DNA of 20,019 nt from a virus. Within the stretch, counting starts at the first letter, position 1. Each line of letters starts with the position of its first letter. The stretch lies in the UHGV virus genome UHGV-1706396; one strand, 5' to 3'. The position numbers were made by a program, and so were the translations under genes. Below the pieces are notes generated by a model that saw only the letters and a list, made by a program, of their open reading frames with translations, did no database searches and was not told the origin of the DNA. Positions 3,553-15,573 of the stretch are shown here, one piece after another.

Positions 3553-3630
3553 CACAGCGTTGAGCGGTCTGGTTTATGTTAGCGGAGTCTTAATCTGGGT
3601 GATTAAAAGGCCAAACCGCTCAACGCTGTG
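3553..3630. repeat. Long inverted repeat (20-bp arms, 19/20 complementary, 38-nt loop) immediately 3' of the tRNA cluster
   Basis: CACAGCGTTGAGCGGTCTGG at 3553-3572 and CCAAACCGCTCAACGCTGTG at 3611-3630; arm sequence related to the repeat at 4901-5022. Confidence 0.6.
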
Positions 3631-4387: not shown

Positions 4388-4463
4388 TGGTGCCGGTTAA
4401 CGGACTTGAACCGCTGACCATTCGCTTACAAAGCGACTGCTCTACCAACTGAGCTAAACCGGC
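4388..4463 (-). tRNA. tRNA-Thr (anticodon TGT)
   Basis: 76 nt: acceptor GCCGGTT/AACCGGC, D-stem GCTC/GAGC, anticodon loop TTTGTAA (27-43 pair mismatched), T-arm AGCGG-TTCAAGT-CCGTT, encoded CCA. Confidence 0.8.
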
Positions 4464-4467
4464 AATT

Positions 4468-4554
4468 TGGTGGGGAGTGATGGAGTCGAACCACCCGAGT
4501 CGCAATGACAGTAGATTTACAGTCTACCCCGCTACCCCTACGGACTAACTCCCC
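4468..4554 (-). tRNA. tRNA-Tyr (anticodon GTA), long variable arm
   Basis: 87 nt: acceptor GGGGAGT/ACTCCCC, anticodon arm GTAGA-CTGTAAA-TCTAC, T-arm GGTGG-TTCGACT-CCATC, discriminator A, encoded CCA. Confidence 0.85.
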
Positions 4555-4559
4555 TAAAT

Positions 4560-4634
4560 TGGCGATGGTGGGTGGATTCGAACCACCGACCAGTTGGTTA
4601 ACAGCCAACTGCTCTACCGCTGAGCTACACCATC
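4560..4634 (-). tRNA. tRNA-Asn (anticodon GTT)
   Basis: 75 nt canonical cloverleaf: acceptor GATGGTG/CACCATC, D-stem GCTC/GAGC, anticodon arm GTTGG-CTGTTAA-CCAAC, T-arm GGTGG-TTCGAAT-CCACC, encoded CCA. Confidence 0.9.
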
Positions 4635-5022: not shown

Positions 5023-5098
5023 TGCTGGCTAACCATACCAGCCGGGCTACGTCGCCGCTTTTTAACCCAGTATAAACGACATAATTGAACAAAATGAC

Positions 5099-5207
5099 GT
5101 AACAGAATGGGCGGTCAGTGGCTAAGAATCCGGGAGTCATATGGAGTTGAAAATATACCGACCGCCCATTCTGTTACTTCATCGGAGGGAACACTCATGT
5201 TCCCTCC
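5099..5207. repeat. Two adjacent strong hairpins in an ORF-poor region (18-bp perfect stem with 43-nt loop, then a GC-rich 10-bp stem with 4-nt loop)
   Basis: GTAACAGAATGGGCGGTC at 5099-5116 pairs with GACCGCCCATTCTGTTAC at 5160-5177; GGAGGGAACA-ctca-TGTTCCCTCC at 5184-5207. Confidence 0.55.
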
Positions 5208-8938: not shown

Positions 8939-10120
8939 TTACGATAGCGCCTTAATGCCCAAAACCTTGCTTTGCAACTCCAACTGTTTGGTATACGGTT
9001 TTGCCCGATAATAGGCTTTGATAATTTGTTCTGGCGTTGCACCGCCCGGGTCGAGTCCTTCCTCACCCAAACACGCAACTTTGACATTAAGACCGATACT
9101 GGTCAGTCGCCTGGCTGCGGCCATAGTGTTGCGTATAGCTTGCTTTTCACTATCCCACATCATGATCACATTACGTAACCCACGCGCCTTGAGCGTCAGG
9201 AACGCGCCTAACTGATCTTCTGCATCCTGAGTGGTGTTACCAGATAGATGCATCCCGAACGTTCCTATCGGTTCCACGTAATCACGTAATGTTTCTTCAT
9301 CAAAAATAGCTCGTTTAACCCCCATAACATCGAACGCCCCCTCACAGACAACTACAGTCTGTTTGCCGACCGCATTATGGCCGTTGTAGAGAAACTTACC
9401 TGAAGCTGGAAGCTGCATAGGAAAGAGGTAGCGGCGTTCTGCTGTACCGGTAATGTCTCGTCCCTGAAATGTCTTCATTACCCCATCCAGATCGTAAACC
9501 GGTATCAGTATTCGCATATCGAATATCTGTCCTTTAACCTGATCTGTATACGGATCTACATAAGCGTGCTTGCCTTCGACGCAGTATCGTAGGTCAAAAT
9601 ACTTTGCCATTTCAGGCGATATGTTTCGTTCAACCAGATAGTCTGGAAGACGGCCATCTATAGGAAGTTCGTAATGACGAGGGAGTGCAAGTGGTCCCTC
9701 TAACTCGACTGTGCTTGTAAGCACTATCTCTTCTTTCTTTGGTGCCCACCCCTGGGAAAGAAGAGCGTTCTGCACATATTCCTCGAACTGTCGTCGTGAT
9801 TTACCGCTGTAGTGCTTGAGGAAGACCAGCTTATTGAACTGAATCTCTTCGGGATGATCACCAGCGAAGCATTTGCCGACGCCACTGGTCAGATTGAAAT
9901 ATACCTTCCAGTTGGAGCTGCCGCATACCGGACACTCCTTGATATTCACTTCACGACCGCGAGCACTCACGCCTCCACGTCGATAAACGATACCTTCAGT
10001 GTCCAACCATTGTTCAAAATCTAATTCGGTAATTAGCTCTTTCAGCTCGCTCACGATAATTCCACTTTTAACAGGCAATATTGTGACCAACCTAAATGTT
10101 GATATAACATAAAGGCTCAT
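8939..10120 (-). CDS. DNA primase (zinc-ribbon plus TOPRIM, DnaG/T7 gp4 primase-like)
   Basis: Zinc-binding CPVCGSS...CFAGDH; TOPRIM-like VVVCEGAFDVMGV and MMWDSE. Start uncertain: the track start (GTG at 10192) lies inside a hairpin; first ATG is at 10120 with a weak RBS; a GTG at 10054 with GGA upstream is an alternative. Confidence 0.7.
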   Translation of the reverse strand: MSLYVISTFRLVTILPVKSGIIVSELKELITELDFEQWLDTEGIVYRRGGVSARGREVNIKECPVCGSSNWKVYFNLTSGVGKCFAGDHPEEIQFNKLVFLKHYSGKSRRQFEEYVQNALLSQGWAPKKEEIVLTSTVELEGPLALPRHYELPIDGRLPDYLVERNISPEMAKYFDLRYCVEGKHAYVDPYTDQVKGQIFDMRILIPVYDLDGVMKTFQGRDITGTAERRYLFPMQLPASGKFLYNGHNAVGKQTVVVCEGAFDVMGVKRAIFDEETLRDYVEPIGTFGMHLSGNTTQDAEDQLGAFLTLKARGLRNVIMMWDSEKQAIRNTMAAARRLTSIGLNVKVACLGEEGLDPGGATPEQIIKAYYRAKPYTKQLELQSKVLGIKALS

Positions 10121-10171
10121 GTGTTTTTCTTTTGTGGTTTGGCAAAAGAAAAGTTGTTTCACCAATGAATC

Positions 10172-10203
10172 AAGCGTGGAGGTGTTCTCCACGCTTATTT
10201 TTT
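10172..10203 (+). terminator. Hairpin with downstream T-run between the helicase and primase genes (plus-strand intrinsic terminator geometry)
   Basis: AAGCGTGGAG-gtgtt-CTCCACGCTT at 10172-10196 followed by a 6-T run (10198-10203) that overlaps the helicase stop codon. Confidence 0.45.
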
Positions 10204-11542
10204 AGGTAACGTCTAAGATCCGCTCAATGAAGCGCATTTGTTCGAGGTTTTGTTTAACACGAATGCTGATCCCTCCCTGCTGGTTACGCGAACCAGCAAA
10301 GTAGAGACGAGCCTCTCCTTTCGCTTCTTCTTCTTCGGTTTTGTTGATCGTTATTACCAGGTCAGCAATACGTACTTTTTCGATGTTGTCGGCGGCGTGC
10401 ATCATTGTGGCAACTTCTGACGCGCCACCTTCACGGTTTGTCTGCGATGCCGTGATTCCAGCAACGTTATGTTTGTCATAAAGAGCACGTAAATCGGTGT
10501 AGATACTACGAATGTTGGCGCGATCATCACGAAGGTCATAACTGGCACGCATCAAATCTGCGTAGTCGACAACAAGCATGTCAGGCACCATGCCATTGGC
10601 TTTCATACTGTTAAGCATACGGTCCAGATCTGCCGGTGACATACTTCCTGACGGACGCTCAACAACCCACAAACTACCAATCCCCTTAGTGGCTCCCAAC
10701 TCTGCCAACTTACGATGAACTTCATCGCGCCGTTCCACCAGCTTGGACATTTCCGTCTCCGACAATCTTGCATCAAAGCGGTCGGACAAAATGTTGGTGT
10801 GAACCTCCAGCGAGAGATACAGAACATTGTAGCCAGCAAGCGTTGCGTTTATGGAAAACTCACCCATTGCGGTCGATTTACCGGATTTAGCGAACCCCAT
10901 GAAGAGCACCATTTCGCGCTTTGCCCAGCCTTTTTGGTACAGCAACCTATCGAGAAGAGGGAGTCCTGTTGTAATACTGTTTGGTACATACTCCTCTGAA
11001 GCCTCATATTCACGCGCTTTCAATCGCTCACTTGCGGAGGTGTAGTAGTCATAGATTCCGGTCGCTTCGTTCGATCCAATCTGCTGAACCTTGGCCATGA
11101 TTGCCATCGCCCCCTGAAAGTCGCCTTTCTCTTTCAGTTCAGCAGCCTTAATCAGAGCATCATCAAACGCTACGCTTTTTGCGAAGGTTGATACCTGGTC
11201 AACCATGTACGAGGTATCGGACAATTTTTCTGCAAGGATGCGCTTAAACGCAGCAACAACATCGGCGAATAGTTCCTCACGGATAGTCTTATCGCGTTTC
11301 GCACGCTTAAGCATATCCAGAATTGCAGATGAAGAGGGCGCGCTCTTGTACATACGGTAATAGCCCGAAACCATATTAACCAATATGGCATTGGCCGCAT
11401 TGGCAAATTGGCTAGGTACAACAAGATCTCCCGCACGAGTAAGAAACTCGTGATCACGACAAAAATAGGCCGTCAATCTGTTCTGAAAATCTTCATCAAA
11501 CTCTTCGGACAGCCCGCGTCCTGTATGGCAAAGTTCTGTCAT
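10202..11542 (-). CDS. Replicative DNA helicase (DnaB / T7 gp4 helicase-like)
   Basis: 446-aa ORF with Walker A GFAKSGKST in the C-terminal half; adjacent to the primase gene. Confidence 0.8.
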   Translation of the reverse strand: MTELCHTGRGLSEEFDEDFQNRLTAYFCRDHEFLTRAGDLVVPSQFANAANAILVNMVSGYYRMYKSAPSSSAILDMLKRAKRDKTIREELFADVVAAFKRILAEKLSDTSYMVDQVSTFAKSVAFDDALIKAAELKEKGDFQGAMAIMAKVQQIGSNEATGIYDYYTSASERLKAREYEASEEYVPNSITTGLPLLDRLLYQKGWAKREMVLFMGFAKSGKSTAMGEFSINATLAGYNVLYLSLEVHTNILSDRFDARLSETEMSKLVERRDEVHRKLAELGATKGIGSLWVVERPSGSMSPADLDRMLNSMKANGMVPDMLVVDYADLMRASYDLRDDRANIRSIYTDLRALYDKHNVAGITASQTNREGGASEVATMMHAADNIEKVRIADLVITINKTEEEEAKGEARLYFAGSRNQQGGISIRVKQNLEQMRFIERILDVT

Positions 11543-11585: not shown

Positions 11586-12326
11586 TTAATTAGATAGGGG
11601 ATCAATAAACCGCCGTGCTTCTTCCAGTTCTTCTGGAAAGTGGGCGGAAATAAGGCGCTCTGGAACTATTTCCATTAGCCAGATAGCGGAGAAAATTGCG
11701 CGTATGCGCTTGCTGCGGGGGATGGTGCGTAAACGCTCCAGAATCCACTCAAAATAGCTTTCCTGGATCGGGTTGAACTGCATGTCTCCCATATGCTTAA
11801 AACTAACCAGAGAGTCATCCAGACGGGTTGTTGCGCGTCTGGCTAATTTCTCTTCAAATATCTCAATCAGTTCTGGCTGCCACAAATGCTGTGGGCGAGG
11901 CAGCTTGTCCCACAGACGTCGTGCAGCTGCGGAAAGCACGGTGGAGATAAAGTAGTCGTATGAGCAGCAATAGCGGTCAGCAAACTGGCGTGCTTTCCAT
12001 AGCGACGTTTTATTGGCAGTCGACAACTCCTGATAAGGCAGGCGTTTTAACCCGGTGGTGAACGGAGCTGTTTCAAAGTGTTCACGACCGTGCGTCAGCA
12101 TGATATTTGAGTACTGACGTTTGTATGCCTCCGTAAACAGACAGGTGGCCATAAGAGGATGCATGTCGCGGTAATCAAACCACTTCGTATCGAAGAGTTC
12201 AGCCTCGTCTTTGCAGCGCGACAAACCAATGTTTTCAGCAACCCACTTATCCATAACAGCGGTATTCCACTCTGTCATGAAGTCGTACTGGTCGTTGTCG
12301 ATGGTGTCGAAAAAGATTTGGCTCAT
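11586..12326 (-). CDS. Hypothetical protein next to the helicase (function unknown; a helicase-loader or initiator role is only speculation)
   Basis: Track ORF begins at a GTG (12335); the ATG at 12326 has an AGGTGA RBS about 7 nt upstream and is preferred. No conserved motifs recognised. Confidence 0.5.
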   Translation of the reverse strand: MSQIFFDTIDNDQYDFMTEWNTAVMDKWVAENIGLSRCKDEAELFDTKWFDYRDMHPLMATCLFTEAYKRQYSNIMLTHGREHFETAPFTTGLKRLPYQELSTANKTSLWKARQFADRYCCSYDYFISTVLSAAARRLWDKLPRPQHLWQPELIEIFEEKLARRATTRLDDSLVSFKHMGDMQFNPIQESYFEWILERLRTIPRSKRIRAIFSAIWLMEIVPERLISAHFPEELEEARRFIDPLSN

Positions 12327-12442
12327 GTGGCTCACCTGGTAGGTAGTTACTTACTTATCACAATGAGCGGATGATAGCGACTGGTGGCAGTTTTTGGAAG
12401 TGGAAACGGAAGGGAGTTGTTCTGGTGGTGTCTTTTAAAAGA

Positions 12443-12497
12443 CCTGCTTCCGTATATATTTAATAAGTTACTTATTATTTATATATACAGAAGCAGG
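12443..12497. repeat. Large AT-rich near-palindrome (about 55 bp) in a divergent intergenic region
   Basis: CCTGCTTCCGTATATAT...ATATATACAGAAGCAGG with central palindrome AATAAGT-T-ACTTATT (12462-12476); arms match apart from one substitution and small indels. Confidence 0.6.
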
Positions 12498-12608
12498 CAT
12501 AACTTGTCGTCTTAGACGCCCAGAAGCTCTACACTTTGAGCCTGTTAAATTGATTAAAAACTTATGTGTAAAATAGAACGCATTAGTCAGTAGCTAAGAG
12601 ATGCAATA

Positions 12609-13376
12609 ATGGACGATTTATCGGTATACGCGAGATCATTGGATAAGGCTAAATACTATGTTTACTGTCTCTATGATACAGAAGACAAGATGAAAAGACC
12701 GTTTTACATAGGAAAAGGCAAATCGACTCGTTGTCTCGATCACATCAAGTATCCCGATGACTCTCCCAAATCCATGCGGATCAAAGAACTTTTGGCTAAT
12801 AAAAAATTAGGCATAGATATTCTTCGTCATGGTATGGATGAAACCACAGCCAAACTTGTTGAGGCGACATGCATCGACCTTATGGGGGTCGGAGAGCTTA
12901 CGAATAAGGTACGAGGAAGTGGTTCCATGATGGGCAGAATATCACTGGACGCCTACCATCACTTAGTGCTGCAAGAGGAAACTGAAATTGCTCCTGAGCA
13001 CGCCGGTCTTGCCTTCCTGCTAAACAGCACCTACAAGTCAGGAATGTCCGCTCTGGCATTATATGAAGCTACGCGTGGCGTATGGGCAAAGGTTCCAAGA
13101 GACGAGAATCTCAAATATGCCTACGCTACATATGGTGGGCTGATAATGGAAGTTTATCAGATTGAATGCTGGGTCAAAGCCGGTTCTCAGCAGTACTTTA
13201 CAAGGGATATAGCTCTTGGCCCCGACACAAAACGTTATGAATTTGTTGGCAGAATAGCCGATGAGCATATTAGAAAACTGTATGTAGGCAAATTAATCAA
13301 GAAGCCACCAAGCTACGGTAGCCCTTTTGTGAAGGTTGGGGTGGTTAGGACTGAACATAGTGTTAGCGCGGCATAA
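12609..13376 (+). CDS. GIY-YIG nuclease-domain protein with uncharacterised C-terminal domain (homing-endonuclease-like or defence nuclease)
   Basis: N-terminal YYVYCLYD...PFYIGKGKSTRCLDH matches the GIY-YIG core pattern (compare UvrC VY..YD..YIGKAK..R); lone plus-strand gene with its own terminator. Confidence 0.55.
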   Translation: MDDLSVYARSLDKAKYYVYCLYDTEDKMKRPFYIGKGKSTRCLDHIKYPDDSPKSMRIKELLANKKLGIDILRHGMDETTAKLVEATCIDLMGVGELTNKVRGSGSMMGRISLDAYHHLVLQEETEIAPEHAGLAFLLNSTYKSGMSALALYEATRGVWAKVPRDENLKYAYATYGGLIMEVYQIECWVKAGSQQYFTRDIALGPDTKRYEFVGRIADEHIRKLYVGKLIKKPPSYGSPFVKVGVVRTEHSVSAA

Positions 13377-13392
13377 AGCTGACATTGTACTT

Positions 13393-13430
13393 ATGCATTG
13401 GCGCGTACATTGCGCCAATGCATAATTTTT
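13393..13430 (+). terminator. Rho-independent terminator after the GIY-YIG gene
   Basis: 12-bp perfect stem ATGCATTGGCGC / GCGCCAATGCAT with 7-nt loop, followed by AATTTTT. Confidence 0.7.
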
Positions 13431-13788
13431 AACCTTTCTTCATCAACTCTCGTTTGATTTCATCGGTACGCATCGTGACATCGGCAGCTGTGATCGCCTC
13501 GTTAAGTTTCACGATGTCCTCGATTTCCTGCGGTGACTTCTCTGCCAGATGGAAAATGGCTGCTCGAATCACGTCTGAACGAGTGAACTTCTCGAAGCGA
13601 GGGATGAACTTCATCATCTCCAGCAGTTCGAAGTATTCGTCCTCCAGTGACATTGTGCGGCTTTTAATTTTCTCTTTGCCACGAGTCGGGCGTCCCTGTG
13701 GTCTGAGTGGTTGGCGCAAAGGAGTTGTATTCTTAGCCGGTTCATCAGTCTCTTTGCGCTTTGCTAGGTCACCCATTTTCATGGACAT
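13429..13788 (-). CDS. Small partition protein, ribbon-helix-helix type (ParG/ParB-like centromere-binding protein)
   Basis: 119-aa ORF coupled to parA (TAATG overlap); basic disordered N-terminus then RHH-like segment KSRTMSLEDEYFELLEMM...SDVIRAAIFHL. Confidence 0.5.
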   Translation of the reverse strand: MSMKMGDLAKRKETDEPAKNTTPLRQPLRPQGRPTRGKEKIKSRTMSLEDEYFELLEMMKFIPRFEKFTRSDVIRAAIFHLAEKSPQEIEDIVKLNEAITAADVTMRTDEIKRELMKKG

Positions 13789-14456
13789 TATTCTTCTTCC
13801 TCCAGACTCAACAGATAATCTACAAATTCTTCAAACTCGGCTTCCGCTTTTTTGTCGCGCTCGCTACCGATCATTTCAAAGATAGAACGACCAGACTCTT
13901 CCGCATCATCGTAGACGTTGCGGTTATATAGATTGACTGGCGCAGACTCGATGCCAAACGTCTCAACAATCTCTTTAGCCGCCAGAATGCGAGACACTTG
14001 TGATGGCAAAGCCGGGCACTGGTTCATGACAGCGCGGACCTTCACTTTATCGTTTACATTACGAACATTGTCGATAATAGGATCGATGTCACGCAGAGAT
14101 TTCAAATCACGACGCTTAGGGCGAAGCGGGATAATGATAACGTCGGCCATCAGCATCGCTTGTCGCTGAATTTCGGAGTCAAAGCCACCAGCATCTACCA
14201 CTACAAACTCAGCTCTACCCTGAAGCGATTTTAGGTGCTTAATGATGTCATCCTGAACGTATGCAAAAGGTATCAGCTCAAGGTCTTCGTTCTGTCGACG
14301 GTCTTCACACCAGCTTGTTGTCGTGCGCTGAATATCTATATCAGTGATATAAACCTTCTTCTTCTTTTTGATTTTCAGGCAAACGGCAATTTGCTGGGCA
14401 ACGGTGGATTTGCCAGGCCCGCCCTTTGTGCCGCCAACCACAAAGATCTTGGTCAT
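13788..14456 (-). CDS. parA: ParA/ParF-family partition ATPase (type Ib)
   Basis: 222-aa ORF with deviant Walker A near the N-terminus (GGTKGGPGKST); followed by a small coupled gene. Confidence 0.8.
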   Translation of the reverse strand: MTKIFVVGGTKGGPGKSTVAQQIAVCLKIKKKKKVYITDIDIQRTTTSWCEDRRQNEDLELIPFAYVQDDIIKHLKSLQGRAEFVVVDAGGFDSEIQRQAMLMADVIIIPLRPKRRDLKSLRDIDPIIDNVRNVNDKVKVRAVMNQCPALPSQVSRILAAKEIVETFGIESAPVNLYNRNVYDDAEESGRSIFEMIGSERDKKAEAEFEEFVDYLLSLEEEE

Positions 14457-14679
14457 TGGAGAGTTCCCTTTGCGTCTATTATTATCGTCTGAAACAACTT
14501 GTTTTCTTATATGTGATATAGCCTAAATGCCTACGGCTACGGTGTAAAGGTTAAATGGTAGGTTGTGGTTAACAATTGGCAATCATTGCTTGTATTTGCC
14601 TGTTGAAAAAAGTAACAATGACCTCTATATTACAAGTACGGTGATATGCCGTACACAATTTGATAATGCACACGTAATG

Positions 14680-14689
14680 GGCTATAGCC
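14680..14689. promoter_or_regulatory. Palindrome GGCTATAGCC overlapping a candidate -10 of the toxin-antitoxin promoter (possible autoregulatory operator)
   Basis: TTGATA (14660-14665), 17-nt spacer, TATAGC (14683-14688); nearby GTACGG-N7-CCGTAC inverted repeat at 14636-14654. Confidence 0.3.
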
Positions 14690-14774
14690 TTTTAAAGTAA
14701 TTTTTGAGTCGAAAACTCAGTTTGAACAGAGGAGATTGATGGCCTTCCTACATCACGGCCATCAGGAGGAATAC

Positions 14775-15044
14775 ATGTCAGCACTAAAAAAGCAGCGCAT
14801 CGATTTGAGATTAACCGATGACGATAAAAGCATCATCGAGGAAGCTGCCGCAATGTCTAACCAGAGCATTACTCAGTTTATGGTTAGCAGTGCATCTGAA
14901 CGTGCCGTGAAAGTTATAGAGCAACACCGTAGACTAGTTCTGAATGAAGAATCCTGGAATCTGGTTATGGACGCTTTAAGCAATCCTCCGGCACCGAACG
15001 ACAAGCTGAAACGAGCTGCTGATCGTCTGAAAAGCATGGAGTAG
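14775..15044 (+). CDS. DUF1778-type antitoxin (TacA/AtaR-like) of a GNAT toxin-antitoxin pair
   Basis: Small ORF immediately upstream of the GNAT toxin gene. Start placed at the ATG at 14775, which has an AGGAGG RBS 5 nt upstream, rather than the TTG at 14736. Confidence 0.75.
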   Translation: MSALKKQRIDLRLTDDDKSIIEEAAAMSNQSITQFMVSSASERAVKVIEQHRRLVLNEESWNLVMDALSNPPAPNDKLKRAADRLKSME

Positions 15045-15051
15045 TTTACTC

Positions 15052-15573
15052 GTGGATAATATAAAGATAGAAATTTTCTCTGGAGAGAAAGATTATGATT
15101 TGAATGGTTTTGATTGCGGTGAAGAATCACTAAATGCCTTTTTAACCAACCACTTAAAAAGGCAGCATGAGGGAAAAATTCTTCGCGCTTATATGCTTTG
15201 CACTAAAGAAGACAGACCAAAAGTGTTAGGGTATTACACTTTGTCAGGCAGCTGCTTTGAAAAGGAGTCCTTACCTTCAAGAAGCCAGCAAAAGAAGGTA
15301 CCTTATCGGAATGTTCCAAGTGTTACTTTGGGCAGACTGGCTTTGGACAAATCTCTTCAAGGTCAAGGATTTGGCTCAATGCTTGTAACACACGCTATGC
15401 GTGTTGTGTATAATGCCTCTCTTGCTGTTGGTATTCATGGACTCTTCGTTGAGGCGTTGAATGATAAAGCTAAGGCGTTTTATAAAAGTCTGGGCTTTAT
15501 CCAGTTGATTGGAAACAACGAGCGATCTTTGTTCTATCCAACAAAATCTATCGAAAAATTGTTCGAAGAATAA
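15052..15573 (+). CDS. GNAT-family acetyltransferase toxin (TacT/AtaT-like)
   Basis: 173-aa ORF with GTG start 7 nt after the antitoxin stop; GNAT core VTLGRLALDKSLQGQGFGSMLV; closely resembles my recollection of E. coli AtaT (not verified). Confidence 0.8.
   Translation: MDNIKIEIFSGEKDYDLNGFDCGEESLNAFLTNHLKRQHEGKILRAYMLCTKEDRPKVLGYYTLSGSCFEKESLPSRSQQKKVPYRNVPSVTLGRLALDKSLQGQGFGSMLVTHAMRVVYNASLAVGIHGLFVEALNDKAKAFYKSLGFIQLIGNNERSLFYPTKSIEKLFEE

What the first reader, a model, noticed from the sequence alone, without database searches (positions are those of the whole stretch)
12443..13430. Stand-alone GIY-YIG nuclease gene behind a 55-bp AT-rich palindrome
A lone plus-strand gene with its own terminator is inserted between the replication block and the partition locus, which is the typical layout of free-standing homing endonucleases. 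Its N-terminus carries the GIY-YIG core (VYCLYD...YIGKGK...R...H); the roughly 150-aa C-terminal domain is unrecognised. Directly upstream is a near-perfect 55-bp palindrome (12443-12497) with a central AATAAGT-T-ACTTATT core; it could be an operator, a cleavage target, or an origin element, given the adjacent helicase and primase.
Basis: partly seen in the sequence, partly recalled or inferred. Interest (0 to 1): 0.6.

Follow-up and report, generated by a model that had tools for sequence, protein, structure and literature searches.

The report
Defence nuclease cargo beside backbone palindrome
The gene belongs to a known family of bacterial immune nucleases that cut phage DNA carrying modified bases and sits in a swap-in slot for defence genes on an SSU5-type phage-plasmid; the palindrome beside it is not part of the gene but one of three copies of a conserved, apparently undescribed backbone signal.

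Summary
Both observations are real. ORF 12609-13376 (+, 255 aa) has a GIY-YIG core and its own terminator. Positions 12443-12497 form a 55-bp near-palindrome.

The 931-bp cassette 12498-13428 is one allele of a multi-allelic defence slot between the parB-like gene and the palindrome. Other alleles are PD-T7-5, DUF2971/PDC-S31, KAP/PDC-S49, a 357-aa unknown, and empty. PD-T4-3 in SSU5 phage-plasmids has already been reported.

The palindrome is independent of the gene. It was present in 78 of 78 relatives chosen by a neighbouring protein. It occurs in 799 PLSDB plasmids, against 136 that carry the cassette. There are three syntenic copies per genome, at operon boundaries, with flanking mirror-image boxes.

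Its sequence is conserved, not just its pairing, so a protein-recognised boundary element (insulator/terminator/operator) is my best guess. A centromere or lytic origin is not excluded.

The parts
12609..13376 (+). PD-T4-3/CMoRE-family gene, 255 aa: predicted modification-dependent (type IV) GIY-YIG restriction nuclease
12642..12920 (+). [quoted passage not shown] Y33-I-G35), R41, H45, E85, N99
12981..13337 (+). C-terminal domain (about aa 125-243), homologous to the CMoRE modification-sensing domain
13391..13425 (+). Intrinsic terminator of the nuclease gene; it abuts the stop codon of the convergent parB-like gene
   Evidence: 15-pair stem, 7 GC pairs, 5-nt loop, tail TTTTTAACCT.
12498..13428 (+). 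931-bp exchangeable cassette (leader, ORF, terminator) filling the cargo slot between the parB-like stop codon and the palindrome
   Evidence: DNA homology to relatives stops at the palindrome edge. Slot lengths in relatives are 33, 829, 934, 1066, 1242, 1262, 1771, 1939 and 2030 bp. The cassette is in 136 PLSDB records at 95% identity or more.
12443..12497 (.). Core of the backbone palindrome (site 1 of three per genome): arms CCTGCTTCYGTATATA around an all-A/T centre
   Evidence: Three syntenic copies per genome. Present in 78 of 78 protein-selected relatives, 103-122 nt before the 249-aa gene. Present in 799 PLSDB records.
12420..12525 (.). Composite element: the core plus mirror-image flanking boxes TTCTGG (12420-12425) and CCAGAA (12520-12525). 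The consensus at other copies is GGTCTGGGAG ... CTCCCAGACC.
   Evidence: Oriented alignment of 95 instances. The boxes pair in the RNA fold, -42.5 kcal/mol, z = -5.4. CTCCCAGAC occurs almost only beside the palindromes in SSU5 and CMS-2020a.
11586..12335 (-). 249-aa conserved gene of unknown function (phrog_2500), first gene of the helicase-primase block. This is the gene the palindrome is always upstream of.
13429..14456 (-). parA (13788-14456) and small parB-like gene (13429-13788, phrog_5111): the other conserved anchor of the slot
   Evidence: Pfam ParA/MipZ families. PHROG matches. The parB-like protein is 97-100% conserved across relatives.

Best explanation
The window is part of an SSU5-type phage-plasmid, a temperate phage kept as a plasmid.

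The gene. ORF 12609-13376 encodes a divergent member (about 25-28% identity to the crystallised enzymes) of the PD-T4-3/CMoRE family of single-protein type IV restriction endonucleases. By inference from characterised family members, the C-terminal domain recognises modified bases in invading phage DNA. These are 5-hydroxymethyl- or glucosyl-hydroxymethyl-cytosine of T-even phages; one homologue also acts on Mu's modified adenine. The N-terminal GIY-YIG domain then cuts that DNA, while the unmodified host and plasmid DNA are spared. The lysogen and its phage-plasmid are thereby protected from T4-like phages.

The cassette. The gene is a self-contained 931-bp cassette with its own leader and terminator. 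It is one allele of a defence-gene hotspot between two conserved anchors: the stop codon of the parB-like gene and the palindrome. Alleles are most likely swapped by homologous recombination in those anchors.

The palindrome. It is not an operator, target or origin for this gene. It is site 1 of three syntenic copies of a roughly 105-bp composite backbone element. Each copy has a GGTCTGG-type box, the arm CCTGCTTCYGTATATA, an A/T centre, the mirror arm and a CCAGACC-type box. Each copy sits 23-33 nt after the last gene of one co-directional gene block and 103-122 nt before the first gene of the next.

My best guess for its function (inferred, about 40%) is a boundary element recognised by a sequence-specific protein. 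At site 1 it would separate the lysogen-expressed par-plus-cargo unit from the lytic helicase-primase operon. Its hairpin plus U-tract would give terminator activity in the direction of transcription.
For: Identity of the element:
- 97% identity to Escherichia phage CMS-2020a, Cyrano and PhiR41_1, and 81% to SSU5.

Gene family:
- PADLOC PD-T4-3 1.3e-23 over aa 11-231.
- phmmer to PDB 9U7U/9U75 2e-15 over aa 12-230.
- Foldseek: the top four hits are the four PD-T4-3 structures, E 7e-12 to 1e-10, probability 1.00.
- The GIYxY-YIG tyrosines, R41, E85 and N99 are invariant in 29 homologues.
- Published biochemistry, structures and phage assays of the family: PMC12923530 and PMC12366544.
- PD-T4-3 already reported in E. 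coli/Shigella SSU5 phage-plasmids: bioRxiv 10.1101/2025.09.12.675607.

Hotspot:
- The slot is empty (33 bp) in L014 and L038. Elsewhere it holds PD-T7-5 (1.5e-139), DUF2971/PDC-S31 (7.6e-34), KAP NTPase/PDC-S49 (2e-21), membrane-protein pairs or a 357-aa unknown.
- Among 72 protein-selected relatives: GIY-YIG 25, 357-aa unknown 16, DUF2971 11, KAP 6, PD-T7-5 4, membrane proteins 4, parB-like gene only 6.

Palindrome independent of the gene:
- Three copies in SSU5 and in CMS-2020a.
- The 96 IMG/VR instances fall into 32, 31 and 32 at three syntenic sites, plus one unclassified.
- Present in 78 of 78 relatives.
- 799 PLSDB records carry the palindrome, against 136 with the cassette.
- It is retained in Y. 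pestis pMT1, which lacks this whole region.
- No palindrome lies upstream of chromosomal homologues of the gene.

Sequence-specific recognition:
- Arm positions 1-3, 7 and 10-12 are invariant in both arms of 35 distinct cores.
- There are no compensatory changes, and position 9 varies independently in the two arms.
- The arm ends are kept in a relative whose neighbouring proteins are only 64-67% identical.

Terminator-like features:
- The RNA hairpin on the transcribed strand.
- A conserved TCTTTT tract after site 1.
- No sigma-70-like promoter between the palindrome and the 249-aa gene at the tool's threshold.
Against: The gene:
- No experiment on this subfamily. Identity to the characterised enzymes is only 25-28%.
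- The acidic autoinhibitory loop is 5 residues shorter, with two rather than four consecutive acidic residues.
- One tetramer-interface residue differs: C88 in place of L96.
- Substrate specificity could therefore differ.
- The global TM-score to 9U75 is only 0.38-0.40, because the predicted domain orientation differs and the linker is of low confidence.

The palindrome:
- Nothing shows which protein binds it, if any.
- The U-tract is weak at site 2.
- Spacing between the arms varies by 2-5 bp, and the core is inverted in one lineage (L091). This fits several models.
- The multi-box, A/T-centred architecture would suit a centromere or an origin equally well.
- The sample of instances was partly ascertained by an exact match to one arm. 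The protein-selected sample removes that bias for site 1 only.
Confidence: 0.8

Rival explanations
1. The gene is a free-standing GIY-YIG homing endonuclease (Seg / I-TevI-like). It spreads by cutting the cognate site in genomes that lack it, and the palindrome may be its target or operator.
Against: The C-terminal half is homologous to the CMoRE modified-base sensor. Pfam found no other domain. The slot holds many unrelated cargos and is a defence hotspot. Homologues are common as single genes in bacterial chromosomes. The palindrome is independent of the gene.
Confidence: 0.04
2. The palindrome copies are dispersed centromeres. The small, highly conserved parB-like protein, or the two ParB-N-domain proteins encoded near site 2, bind them so that the ParA ATPase can segregate the 100-kb plasmid. 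This would resemble the four IR centromere sites of phage-plasmid N15.
For: In the empty-slot allele the element lies 33 bp after the parB-like gene, the position of parS/sopC in P1 and F. The parB-like protein is unusually conserved at 97-100%. The element has a multi-box symmetric architecture with an A/T centre. The three copies are spread round the circle. N15 uses IR1-4 as centromere sites (PMC7205306; that these sites are dispersed is from my own knowledge of Ravin & Lane 1999).
Against: Sites 2 and 3 have the same 'after a stop codon, about 110 nt before the next gene' geometry, which suggests transcriptional punctuation. The region upstream of parA has its own GGCTATA-type repeats, the usual place for a type Ib centromere/operator. 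pMT1 keeps site 2 although it lacks this par system and uses a P1-type ParAB. In L136 the parB-like protein has diverged to 67% identity while the arm ends are unchanged.
Confidence: 0.17
3. The palindromes are origins of lytic DNA replication. Inverted initiator-binding sites flank an easily melted A/T centre, the layout of herpesvirus oriS/oriL. They would be served by the adjacent helicase-primase-polymerase genes.
For: The all-A/T centre of 19-35 bp lies between conserved inverted arms. Site 1 sits at the head of the helicase-primase block, whose first gene (249 aa) has unknown function. There is strong hairpin/cruciform potential. Several origins per genome are known in other large phages (own knowledge).
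Against: Sites 2 and 3 are next to packaging and miscellaneous genes, not replication genes. Cumulative GC and AT skews run monotonically through all three sites; this is weak evidence, because gene orientation dominates skew here. There is no iteron array.
Confidence: 0.13
4. The palindromes act purely at the RNA level, as long hairpins in polycistronic transcripts. They could be intrinsic terminators, RNase III processing sites or 3'-end stabilisers. No dedicated DNA-binding protein would be involved.
For: All copies lie between co-directional genes, 23-33 nt after a stop codon. The hairpin is very stable. A U-tract follows sites 1 and 3. A stem of about 25 bp would suit RNase III (own knowledge).
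Against: The sequence itself is conserved across three paralogous sites, several genera and a 64%-identity relative, with no compensatory substitutions. There is no consistent G.U versus C.A strand bias: site 1 favours the transcribed strand, site 3 the opposite strand. The core is inverted in one lineage with no change of flanks. No Rfam family matches.
Confidence: 0.2

Closest known systems
PD-T4-3 / CMoRE (Cytosine Modification Restriction Endonuclease; PDB 9U7U, 9U75; Vassallo et al. 2022 screen; PMC12923530)
   Same: Single gene of about 250 aa. N-terminal GIY-YIG domain with the extra tyrosine (GIYxY-YIG) and conserved catalytic Arg, Glu and Asn. Homologous C-terminal sensing domain. Carried on mobile elements. 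Already detected in SSU5-group phage-plasmids by DefenseFinder.
   Different: Only 25-28% identical to the solved enzymes. The acidic lid loop is 5 residues shorter, with 2 rather than 4 consecutive acidic residues. Interface residue L96 is Cys here. Activity and specificity of this subfamily (phrog_5356) are untested.
Free-standing GIY-YIG homing endonucleases of phages (I-TevI, T4 Seg proteins)
   Different: No sequence-specific DNA-binding module. The C-terminal domain is a modified-base sensor. The slot is shared with unrelated defence genes. Homologues are widespread in bacterial chromosomes.
Defence-gene hotspots of temperate phages and satellites (for example the P2/P4 hotspots; own knowledge)
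   Same: A fixed position between conserved backbone genes holds alternative, unrelated anti-phage genes, including an empty state. The cargo lies in or next to a lysogen-expressed unit.
   Different: Here the slot lies between a plasmid-partition operon and a conserved palindrome on a phage-plasmid. No integrase or attachment site is involved, and the boundaries are the parB-like stop codon and the palindrome edge.
Dispersed IR centromere sites (IR1-4) of phage-plasmid N15
   Same: Several copies of a conserved palindrome on a phage-plasmid, outside the par operon.
   Different: The N15 sites are short (about 16-bp) SopB sites of a type Ia system. This element is 55-105 bp, A/T-centred and multi-box. 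It sits at operon junctions, and binding by any Par protein is untested.
Intrinsic (Rho-independent) terminators
   Same: A hairpin followed by a U-rich tract in the direction of transcription at sites 1 and 3, placed just after a stop codon.
   Different: The stem is about 25 bp and A/T-rich rather than 5-14 bp and GC-rich. The same sequence is kept at three sites and across genera. The U-tract is weak at site 2. There are extra flanking boxes.

Membership tests
PD-T4-3 / CMoRE type IV restriction endonuclease | Single polypeptide of about 250 aa: N-terminal GIY-YIG domain plus the family-specific C-terminal sensing domain | tested here: met
   [not shown]
PD-T4-3 / CMoRE type IV restriction endonuclease | GIYxY-YIG motif (a third tyrosine between the two canonical ones) | tested here: met
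   Y17-V18-Y19 ... Y33-I34-G35 align to CMoRE Y17/Y19/Y31. They are invariant in 29 homologues. The motif definition is from PMC12923530.
PD-T4-3 / CMoRE type IV restriction endonuclease | Catalytic Arg and Glu (plus the GIY-YIG Asn) | tested here: met
   R41, E85 and N99 are aligned and invariant.
PD-T4-3 / CMoRE type IV restriction endonuclease | Inserted, negatively charged autoinhibitory loop between helices 2 and 3 (four consecutive acidic residues; present in 'most' members) | tested here: inconclusive
   A loop is present at aa 47-55 (KYPDDSPKS). It is 5 residues shorter than in 9u7u/9u75 and has only two adjacent acidic residues. Homologues show D/E-rich variants such as TDEDEK and EDDDAR.
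PD-T4-3 / CMoRE type IV restriction endonuclease | Tetramer needed for function (interface V92/L96) | tested here: inconclusive
   V92 aligns to V84, which is conserved. L96 aligns to C88, which is invariant Cys in this subfamily. The oligomeric state was not modelled.
PD-T4-3 / CMoRE type IV restriction endonuclease | Cuts 5hmC/5ghmC DNA and protects against T-even phages without abortive infection | not testable with these tools
   Known only for other members (PMC12923530, PMC12366544).
Free-standing GIY-YIG homing endonuclease | Catalytic domain joined to a sequence-specific DNA-binding module (zinc finger, helix-turn-helix, NUMOD/IENR-type) | tested here: not met
   Pfam finds only PF22945. 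The C-terminal half is the CMoRE sensor domain. The PHROG homing-endonuclease match has E 0.28.
Free-standing GIY-YIG homing endonuclease | Insertion polymorphism of that one gene at a conserved site whose empty form is the cleavage target | tested here: not met
   The site is polymorphic but multi-allelic, with at least eight unrelated cargos. Cleavage of the empty site could not be tested.
Intrinsic terminator (feature 13391-13425) | GC-rich stem-loop directly followed by a T-run | tested here: met
   15 pairs, 7 GC pairs, 5-nt loop, TTTTTAACCT.
Intrinsic terminator (palindrome, minus strand) | Short GC-rich stem-loop directly followed by a T-run | tested here: inconclusive
   A long A/T-rich hairpin whose base (CCUGCUUC/GAAGCAGG) is followed by UCUUUU at site 1. 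The consensus scan did not call it. The tract is weak at site 2.
Structured RNA with conserved pairing (any Rfam family) | Match to a curated model, or compensatory base changes | tested here: not met
   Rfam at gathering thresholds finds only three tRNAs in the window. There are no compensatory changes in the arms, and position 9 varies independently in the two arms.
Plasmid centromere (parS-like) | Bound by the cognate ParB, and stabilises a plasmid in cis | not testable with these tools
   Only indirect evidence for and against.
LexA (SOS) box CTGT-N8-ACAG | Two half-sites with fixed 8-bp spacing | tested here: not met
   CTGTATAT and ATATACAG-like halves exist, but they are about 39 bp apart. 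The first T is C in many copies (CCG/CGG).

The most novel reading that the evidence does not exclude
The palindrome would be one of three copies of an apparently undescribed cis-element, recognised by a sequence-specific protein, that is universal in SSU5-supergroup phage-plasmids (about 800 sequenced plasmids, including Y. pestis pMT1). It would divide the genome into three domains and fix the boundary of a defence-gene hotspot. It could be a master operator/insulator, a dispersed centromere or a lytic origin. Separately, this divergent CMoRE subfamily could sense a DNA modification other than hmC/ghmC.
Probability: 0.5. Interest if true: 0.55.

Novelty: new member of a known kind. Interest (0 to 1): 0.35.

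Why it matters
The gene. It adds a divergent, untested subfamily to the CMoRE/PD-T4-3 type IV restriction enzymes. It shows that, on SSU5-type phage-plasmids of E. coli, this enzyme is one interchangeable allele of a defined defence slot next to the partition genes. That bears on which lysogens resist T4-like therapeutic phages. The presence of PD-T4-3 in these elements has already been reported, so this part is confirmation and refinement.

The palindrome. This is the more open item. It is a highly conserved, three-copy composite element found in hundreds of clinically relevant plasmids. These come from E. coli, Klebsiella, Salmonella and Enterobacter, and include Y. pestis pMT1. None of the full-text searches turned up a description of it. 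Finding what binds it could expose how these phage-plasmids separate lysogenic from lytic gene expression, how they segregate, or where lytic replication starts. It would also give a precise landmark for engineering or typing the hotspot.

Tried and rejected
- Homing endonuclease: rejected, as set out above.
- Palindrome as operator or target of the nuclease gene: rejected on distribution.
- Rfam scan of the window: only three tRNAs.
- Covariation and strand-asymmetry test of the hairpin: no compensatory changes and no consistent G.U bias. A purely structural RNA is therefore not favoured.
- GC/AT skew across whole SSU5 and CMS-2020a genomes: monotonic, with no inflection at the three sites. 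This is uninformative for origins because nearly all genes share one orientation.
- Flanking CTCCCAGAC box as a general promoter motif: rejected, since it occurs almost only beside the palindromes.
- Concerted evolution of the centres within a genome: not consistent. Contig 154997 combines a Salmonella-type site 1 with an E. coli-type site 2.
- LexA-box resemblance: wrong spacing.
- IHF consensus, sigma-54 -24/-12 and integron attC ends: checked by eye only, and none fits.
- Consensus scan: no sigma-70-like promoter at the tool's threshold, either upstream of the nuclease ORF or between the palindrome and the 249-aa gene. The best candidate for the nuclease gene by eye is TTAAAT (12545-12550), an 18-nt spacer, then TAAAAT (12569-12574). 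It is weak.
- NCBIfam gave no hit for the nuclease.
- Pfam gave nothing for the parB-like and 249-aa proteins.
- Literature searches for SSU5 with 'palindrome', 'inverted repeat' or 'repressor, operator' found no description of the element. One 2026 preprint on an SSU5/pHCM2-type phage-plasmid could not be opened.
Full report
1. WHAT IS IN THE SEQUENCE

The window is 97% identical to Escherichia phages CMS-2020a, Cyrano and PhiR41_1, and 81% identical to Salmonella phage SSU5. It is therefore a piece of an SSU5-type phage-plasmid.

The reported ORF is real: 12609-13376, + strand, 255 aa. Its motifs are YYVYCLYD...FYIGKGK...R41...H45...E85...N99. Pfam PF22945 (LEM-3-like GIY-YIG) passes its curated cut-off, 30.1 against 27 bits.

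A clean intrinsic terminator follows at 13391-13425, with 15 pairs and then TTTTTAACCT.

The palindrome is also real. The outer arms 12443-12459 / 12481-12497 are 94% complementary. The inner arms 12453-12468 / 12470-12485 are 88% complementary. It is far beyond chance, with 0.02 expected matches of the arm. As single-stranded DNA it folds at -12.9 kcal/mol, z = -8.1.

The neighbours on the minus strand are these:
- a 249-aa gene of unknown function at 11586-12335 (phrog_2500);
- a DnaB-like helicase at 10202-11542;
- a primase at 8939-10192;
- on the other side, a small parB-like gene at 13429-13788 (phrog_5111) and parA at 13788-14456.

2. THE GENE IS A PD-T4-3 / CMoRE-FAMILY DEFENCE NUCLEASE, NOT A HOMING ENDONUCLEASE

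The PADLOC model for the defence system PD-T4-3 matches aa 11-231 with E = 1.3e-23. A sequence search of the PDB finds only 9U7U/9U7Z and 9U75/9U8D, at E = 2e-15 over aa 12-230. That covers both halves of the protein.

The 9U7U/9U75 structures belong to CMoRE (PMC12923530). CMoRE has these properties:
- It is a single-protein type IV restriction enzyme that binds and degrades DNA containing 5hmC or glucosyl-5hmC.
- It recognises a consensus CN11/N9G with two modified sites.
- It protects E. coli about 10^5-fold against T2, T4 and T6, without abortive infection.

A Capnocytophaga homologue, 48% identical to the original PD-T4-3, also degrades Mu DNA, which carries a modified adenine (PMC12366544).

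In the window's protein, Y17-V-Y19, Y33, R41, E85 and N99 align to the CMoRE catalytic residues. All are invariant in 29 homologues. The acidic loop is present but 5 residues shorter, with two adjacent acidic residues instead of four. One interface residue (L96) is Cys. Identity to the solved enzymes is 25-28%.

I therefore file it as a divergent family member. The mechanism is inferred by homology, and the substrate range is uncertain.

The exact protein is already in NCBI as [quoted passage not shown]. There are 288 homologues with E < 1e-5, many on megabase-size chromosomal contigs. Two chromosomal examples are stand-alone genes in variable regions, with no palindrome upstream. One is in Providencia a few genes from mutS; the other is in Shewanella. 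A 2025 preprint already lists PD-T4-3 among the defence systems of E. coli/Shigella SSU5-group phage-plasmids.

The features that define a homing endonuclease were tested and not met. There is no sequence-specific DNA-binding module, the site is not a simple presence/absence polymorphism of one gene, and the distribution is not restricted to phages.

3. THE GENE SITS IN A MULTI-ALLELIC DEFENCE SLOT

DNA similarity between the window and other SSU5-like phages covers 12330-12497 and stops at the right edge of the palindrome.

I oriented relatives by their conserved genes and measured the distance from the end of the parB-like gene to the palindrome. The values are 33 bp (empty slot, two contigs), 829, 934 (this cassette), 1066, 1242, 1262, 1771, 1939 (SSU5 itself) and 2030 bp.

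The alternative cargos include:
- PD-T7-5 (1.5e-139);
- DUF2971 proteins matching PDC-S31 (7.6e-34);
- a KAP-family P-loop protein matching PDC-S49 (2e-21; Pfam KAP_NTPase);
- pairs of membrane proteins;
- a 357-aa protein with no match in PADLOC or Pfam.

In 72 contigs chosen only because they encode the 249-aa neighbour, the slot held: GIY-YIG 25 (95-100% identical, always antiparallel to the backbone), the 357-aa gene 16, DUF2971 11, KAP 6, PD-T7-5 4, membrane proteins 4, and the parB-like gene only 6.

In PLSDB the 931-bp cassette 12498-13428 occurs in 136 plasmids, 134 of them Escherichia, at 95% identity or more.

The whole inter-anchor sequence is replaced from allele to allele, and I saw no repeats or recombinase sites at the junctions. 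Exchange by homologous recombination in the conserved anchors is therefore the most economical mechanism. This step is an inference.

4. THE PALINDROME BELONGS TO THE BACKBONE, NOT TO THE GENE

A 65-bp query finds 2-5 places in every SSU5-like phage record. Both-strand hits to a palindrome can count twice. In Klebsiella phage ST13-OXA48phi12.3 a 94.6%-identical copy lies upstream of the small-terminase gene, with unrelated flanks.

Whole-genome mapping gives three copies:

| Genome | Site 1 | Site 2 | Site 3 |
|---|---|---|---|
| SSU5 | 33458-33518, between cargo gene SSU5_037 and SSU5_038-helicase-primase | 103262 to 19, between SSU5_130 and the small terminase | 78303-78361, between DNA methyltransferase SSU5_088 and SSU5_089 |
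| CMS-2020a | 28806-28860 | 61526-61580 (identical over 55 bp) | 91622-91677 |

A scan of IMG/VR with one arm returned 96 paired instances. They fall into exactly these three syntenic classes (32, 31 and 32), plus one unclassified.

In the sample chosen by protein, and so unbiased with respect to the palindrome, 78 of 78 loci with enough upstream DNA carry it, 103-122 nt before the 249-aa gene.

PLSDB holds it in 799 plasmids: Klebsiella 313, Escherichia 237, Enterobacter 91, Yersinia 62, Salmonella 49 and others. Y. pestis pMT1 has lost the helicase-primase region, this par system and sites 1 and 3. It still keeps site 2.

The palindrome therefore cannot be an operator, target or origin dedicated to the GIY-YIG gene.

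5. ANATOMY OF THE ELEMENT, AND WHAT IT ARGUES FOR

All copies lie between co-directional genes, 23-33 nt after the upstream stop codon and about 105-120 nt before the next start.

The core arms CCTGCTTCYGTATATA are nearly invariant. The 19-35 bp centre is pure A/T and differs between the three sites. Total length varies from 52 to 57 bp through (TA)n changes.

About 13 nt outside the core lie mirror-image boxes with consensus GGTCTGGGAG ... CTCCCAGACC. In the window they are TTCTGG 12420-12425 and CCAGAA 12520-12525. A further CCAGAA box lies downstream. CTCCCAGAC occurs almost only next to the palindromes.

On the transcribed (minus) strand, the RNA of 12400-12540 folds into one long interrupted hairpin, -42.5 kcal/mol, z = -5.4. 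At site 1 it is followed by a conserved UCUUUU tract. The tract is present at site 3 and weak at site 2.

Several observations argue against a purely structural role:
- Among 35 distinct cores there is not one compensatory double change in the arms.
- The only variable pair (position 9: TG 18, CG 9, CA 5, TA 3) shows no association between the two sides.
- The G.U versus C.A bias points in opposite directions at sites 1 and 3.
- A relative whose ParA, parB-like and 249-aa proteins are only 64-67% identical still has CCTGCTTCT...AGAAGCAGG.
- One lineage (L091) carries the core inverted relative to its flanks.

Together these say that the sequence itself is under constraint, symmetrically, at the DNA level. 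That points to recognition by a protein.

The consensus scan finds no sigma-70-like promoter between the palindrome and the 249-aa gene.

My preferred reading, at about 40%, is a protein-recognised boundary element. It would insulate or terminate the lysogen-expressed par-plus-cargo unit from the lytic replication operon, and likewise at the two other module junctions. This would also explain why new cargo accumulates just upstream of it.

The rivals that remain open are these:
- A dispersed centromere (about 17%), by analogy with N15 IR1-4. Against it: there are candidate repeats upstream of parA, and pMT1 retains site 2 without this par system.
- Lytic origins (about 13%). The skew analysis is uninformative.
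- A purely RNA-level terminator or processing site (about 20%).

None of the literature searches found a description of the element. Subscription-journal papers on SSU5, pHCM2 and pMT1 could not be searched.

6. VERDICT

GIY-YIG nuclease: yes. Inserted stand-alone cassette: yes. Homing endonuclease: no. Palindrome functionally tied to the gene: no.

The gene is a new, divergent member of a known and recently characterised defence family, in a context that has already been reported. That makes it ordinary for a specialist.

The added value is the definition of the hotspot and the recognition that the palindrome is a universal, three-copy, apparently undescribed cis-element of the SSU5 supergroup. 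Overall interest is 0.35.

Noticed in passing
SSU5 RefSeq NC_018843: 103262-103299 joined to 1-19 (loci L008/L006): The linear SSU5 reference record is cut almost at the centre of palindrome site 2, just upstream of the small-terminase gene. Several IMG/VR contigs also end at or near a palindrome copy. This is probably an assembly break at a long hairpin rather than a physical genome end, but I did not check.
   Followed up: partly
[not shown]
   Followed up: partly
Relatives L096, L039, L018 (slot between the parB-like gene and the palindrome); same position as window 12498-13428: The second most common allele of the slot (16 of 72 contigs) is a 357-aa protein on the opposite strand, with no PADLOC or Pfam match. 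It is a candidate uncharacterised defence gene by position.
   Followed up: partly
L091 (IMG/VR 2617271087_000005), site 1: The 55-bp core is inverted relative to its conserved flanks in the lineage that carries the KAP-NTPase cargo. The core can apparently flip or be exchanged between copies.
   Followed up: no
window 14736-15573 (+): TacA-like antitoxin (PF08681, 1.9e-26) followed by a GNAT acetyltransferase toxin. Cyrano annotates the homologue as a KacT acetyltransferase-type toxin. The pair lies directly upstream of parA on the opposite strand.
   Followed up: no
window 14500-14700: The region upstream of parA carries repeated GGCTATA-type boxes: AGGCTATAGCCC, AGGCTATATCAC and TGTAATATAG. 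This is a plausible operator/centromere for the type Ib partition system.
   Followed up: partly
window 4391-4634 (-): Three tRNA genes in a row (Rfam tRNA, 41.9-75.5 bits). Cyrano annotates them as Ser, Thr and Asn. This segment is also about 91-95% identical to P1/P7/D6-type and other E. coli phages.
   Followed up: no
window 5094-5182 and 3553-3630: Two other long inverted repeats: 26-nt arms, 92% complementary, 37 nt apart; and 20-nt arms, 95% complementary, 38 nt apart. They are unrelated in sequence to the palindrome studied here.
   Followed up: no
window 12498-12530 versus site 3 of E. coli-type relatives: The cargo-side flank of the GIY-YIG allele (AGCTTCTGGGCGTCT...) resembles the upstream box of site 3 (GTTCTGGCGTCT...) more than it resembles the empty-slot flank. 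This hints at past recombination between element copies.
   Followed up: no
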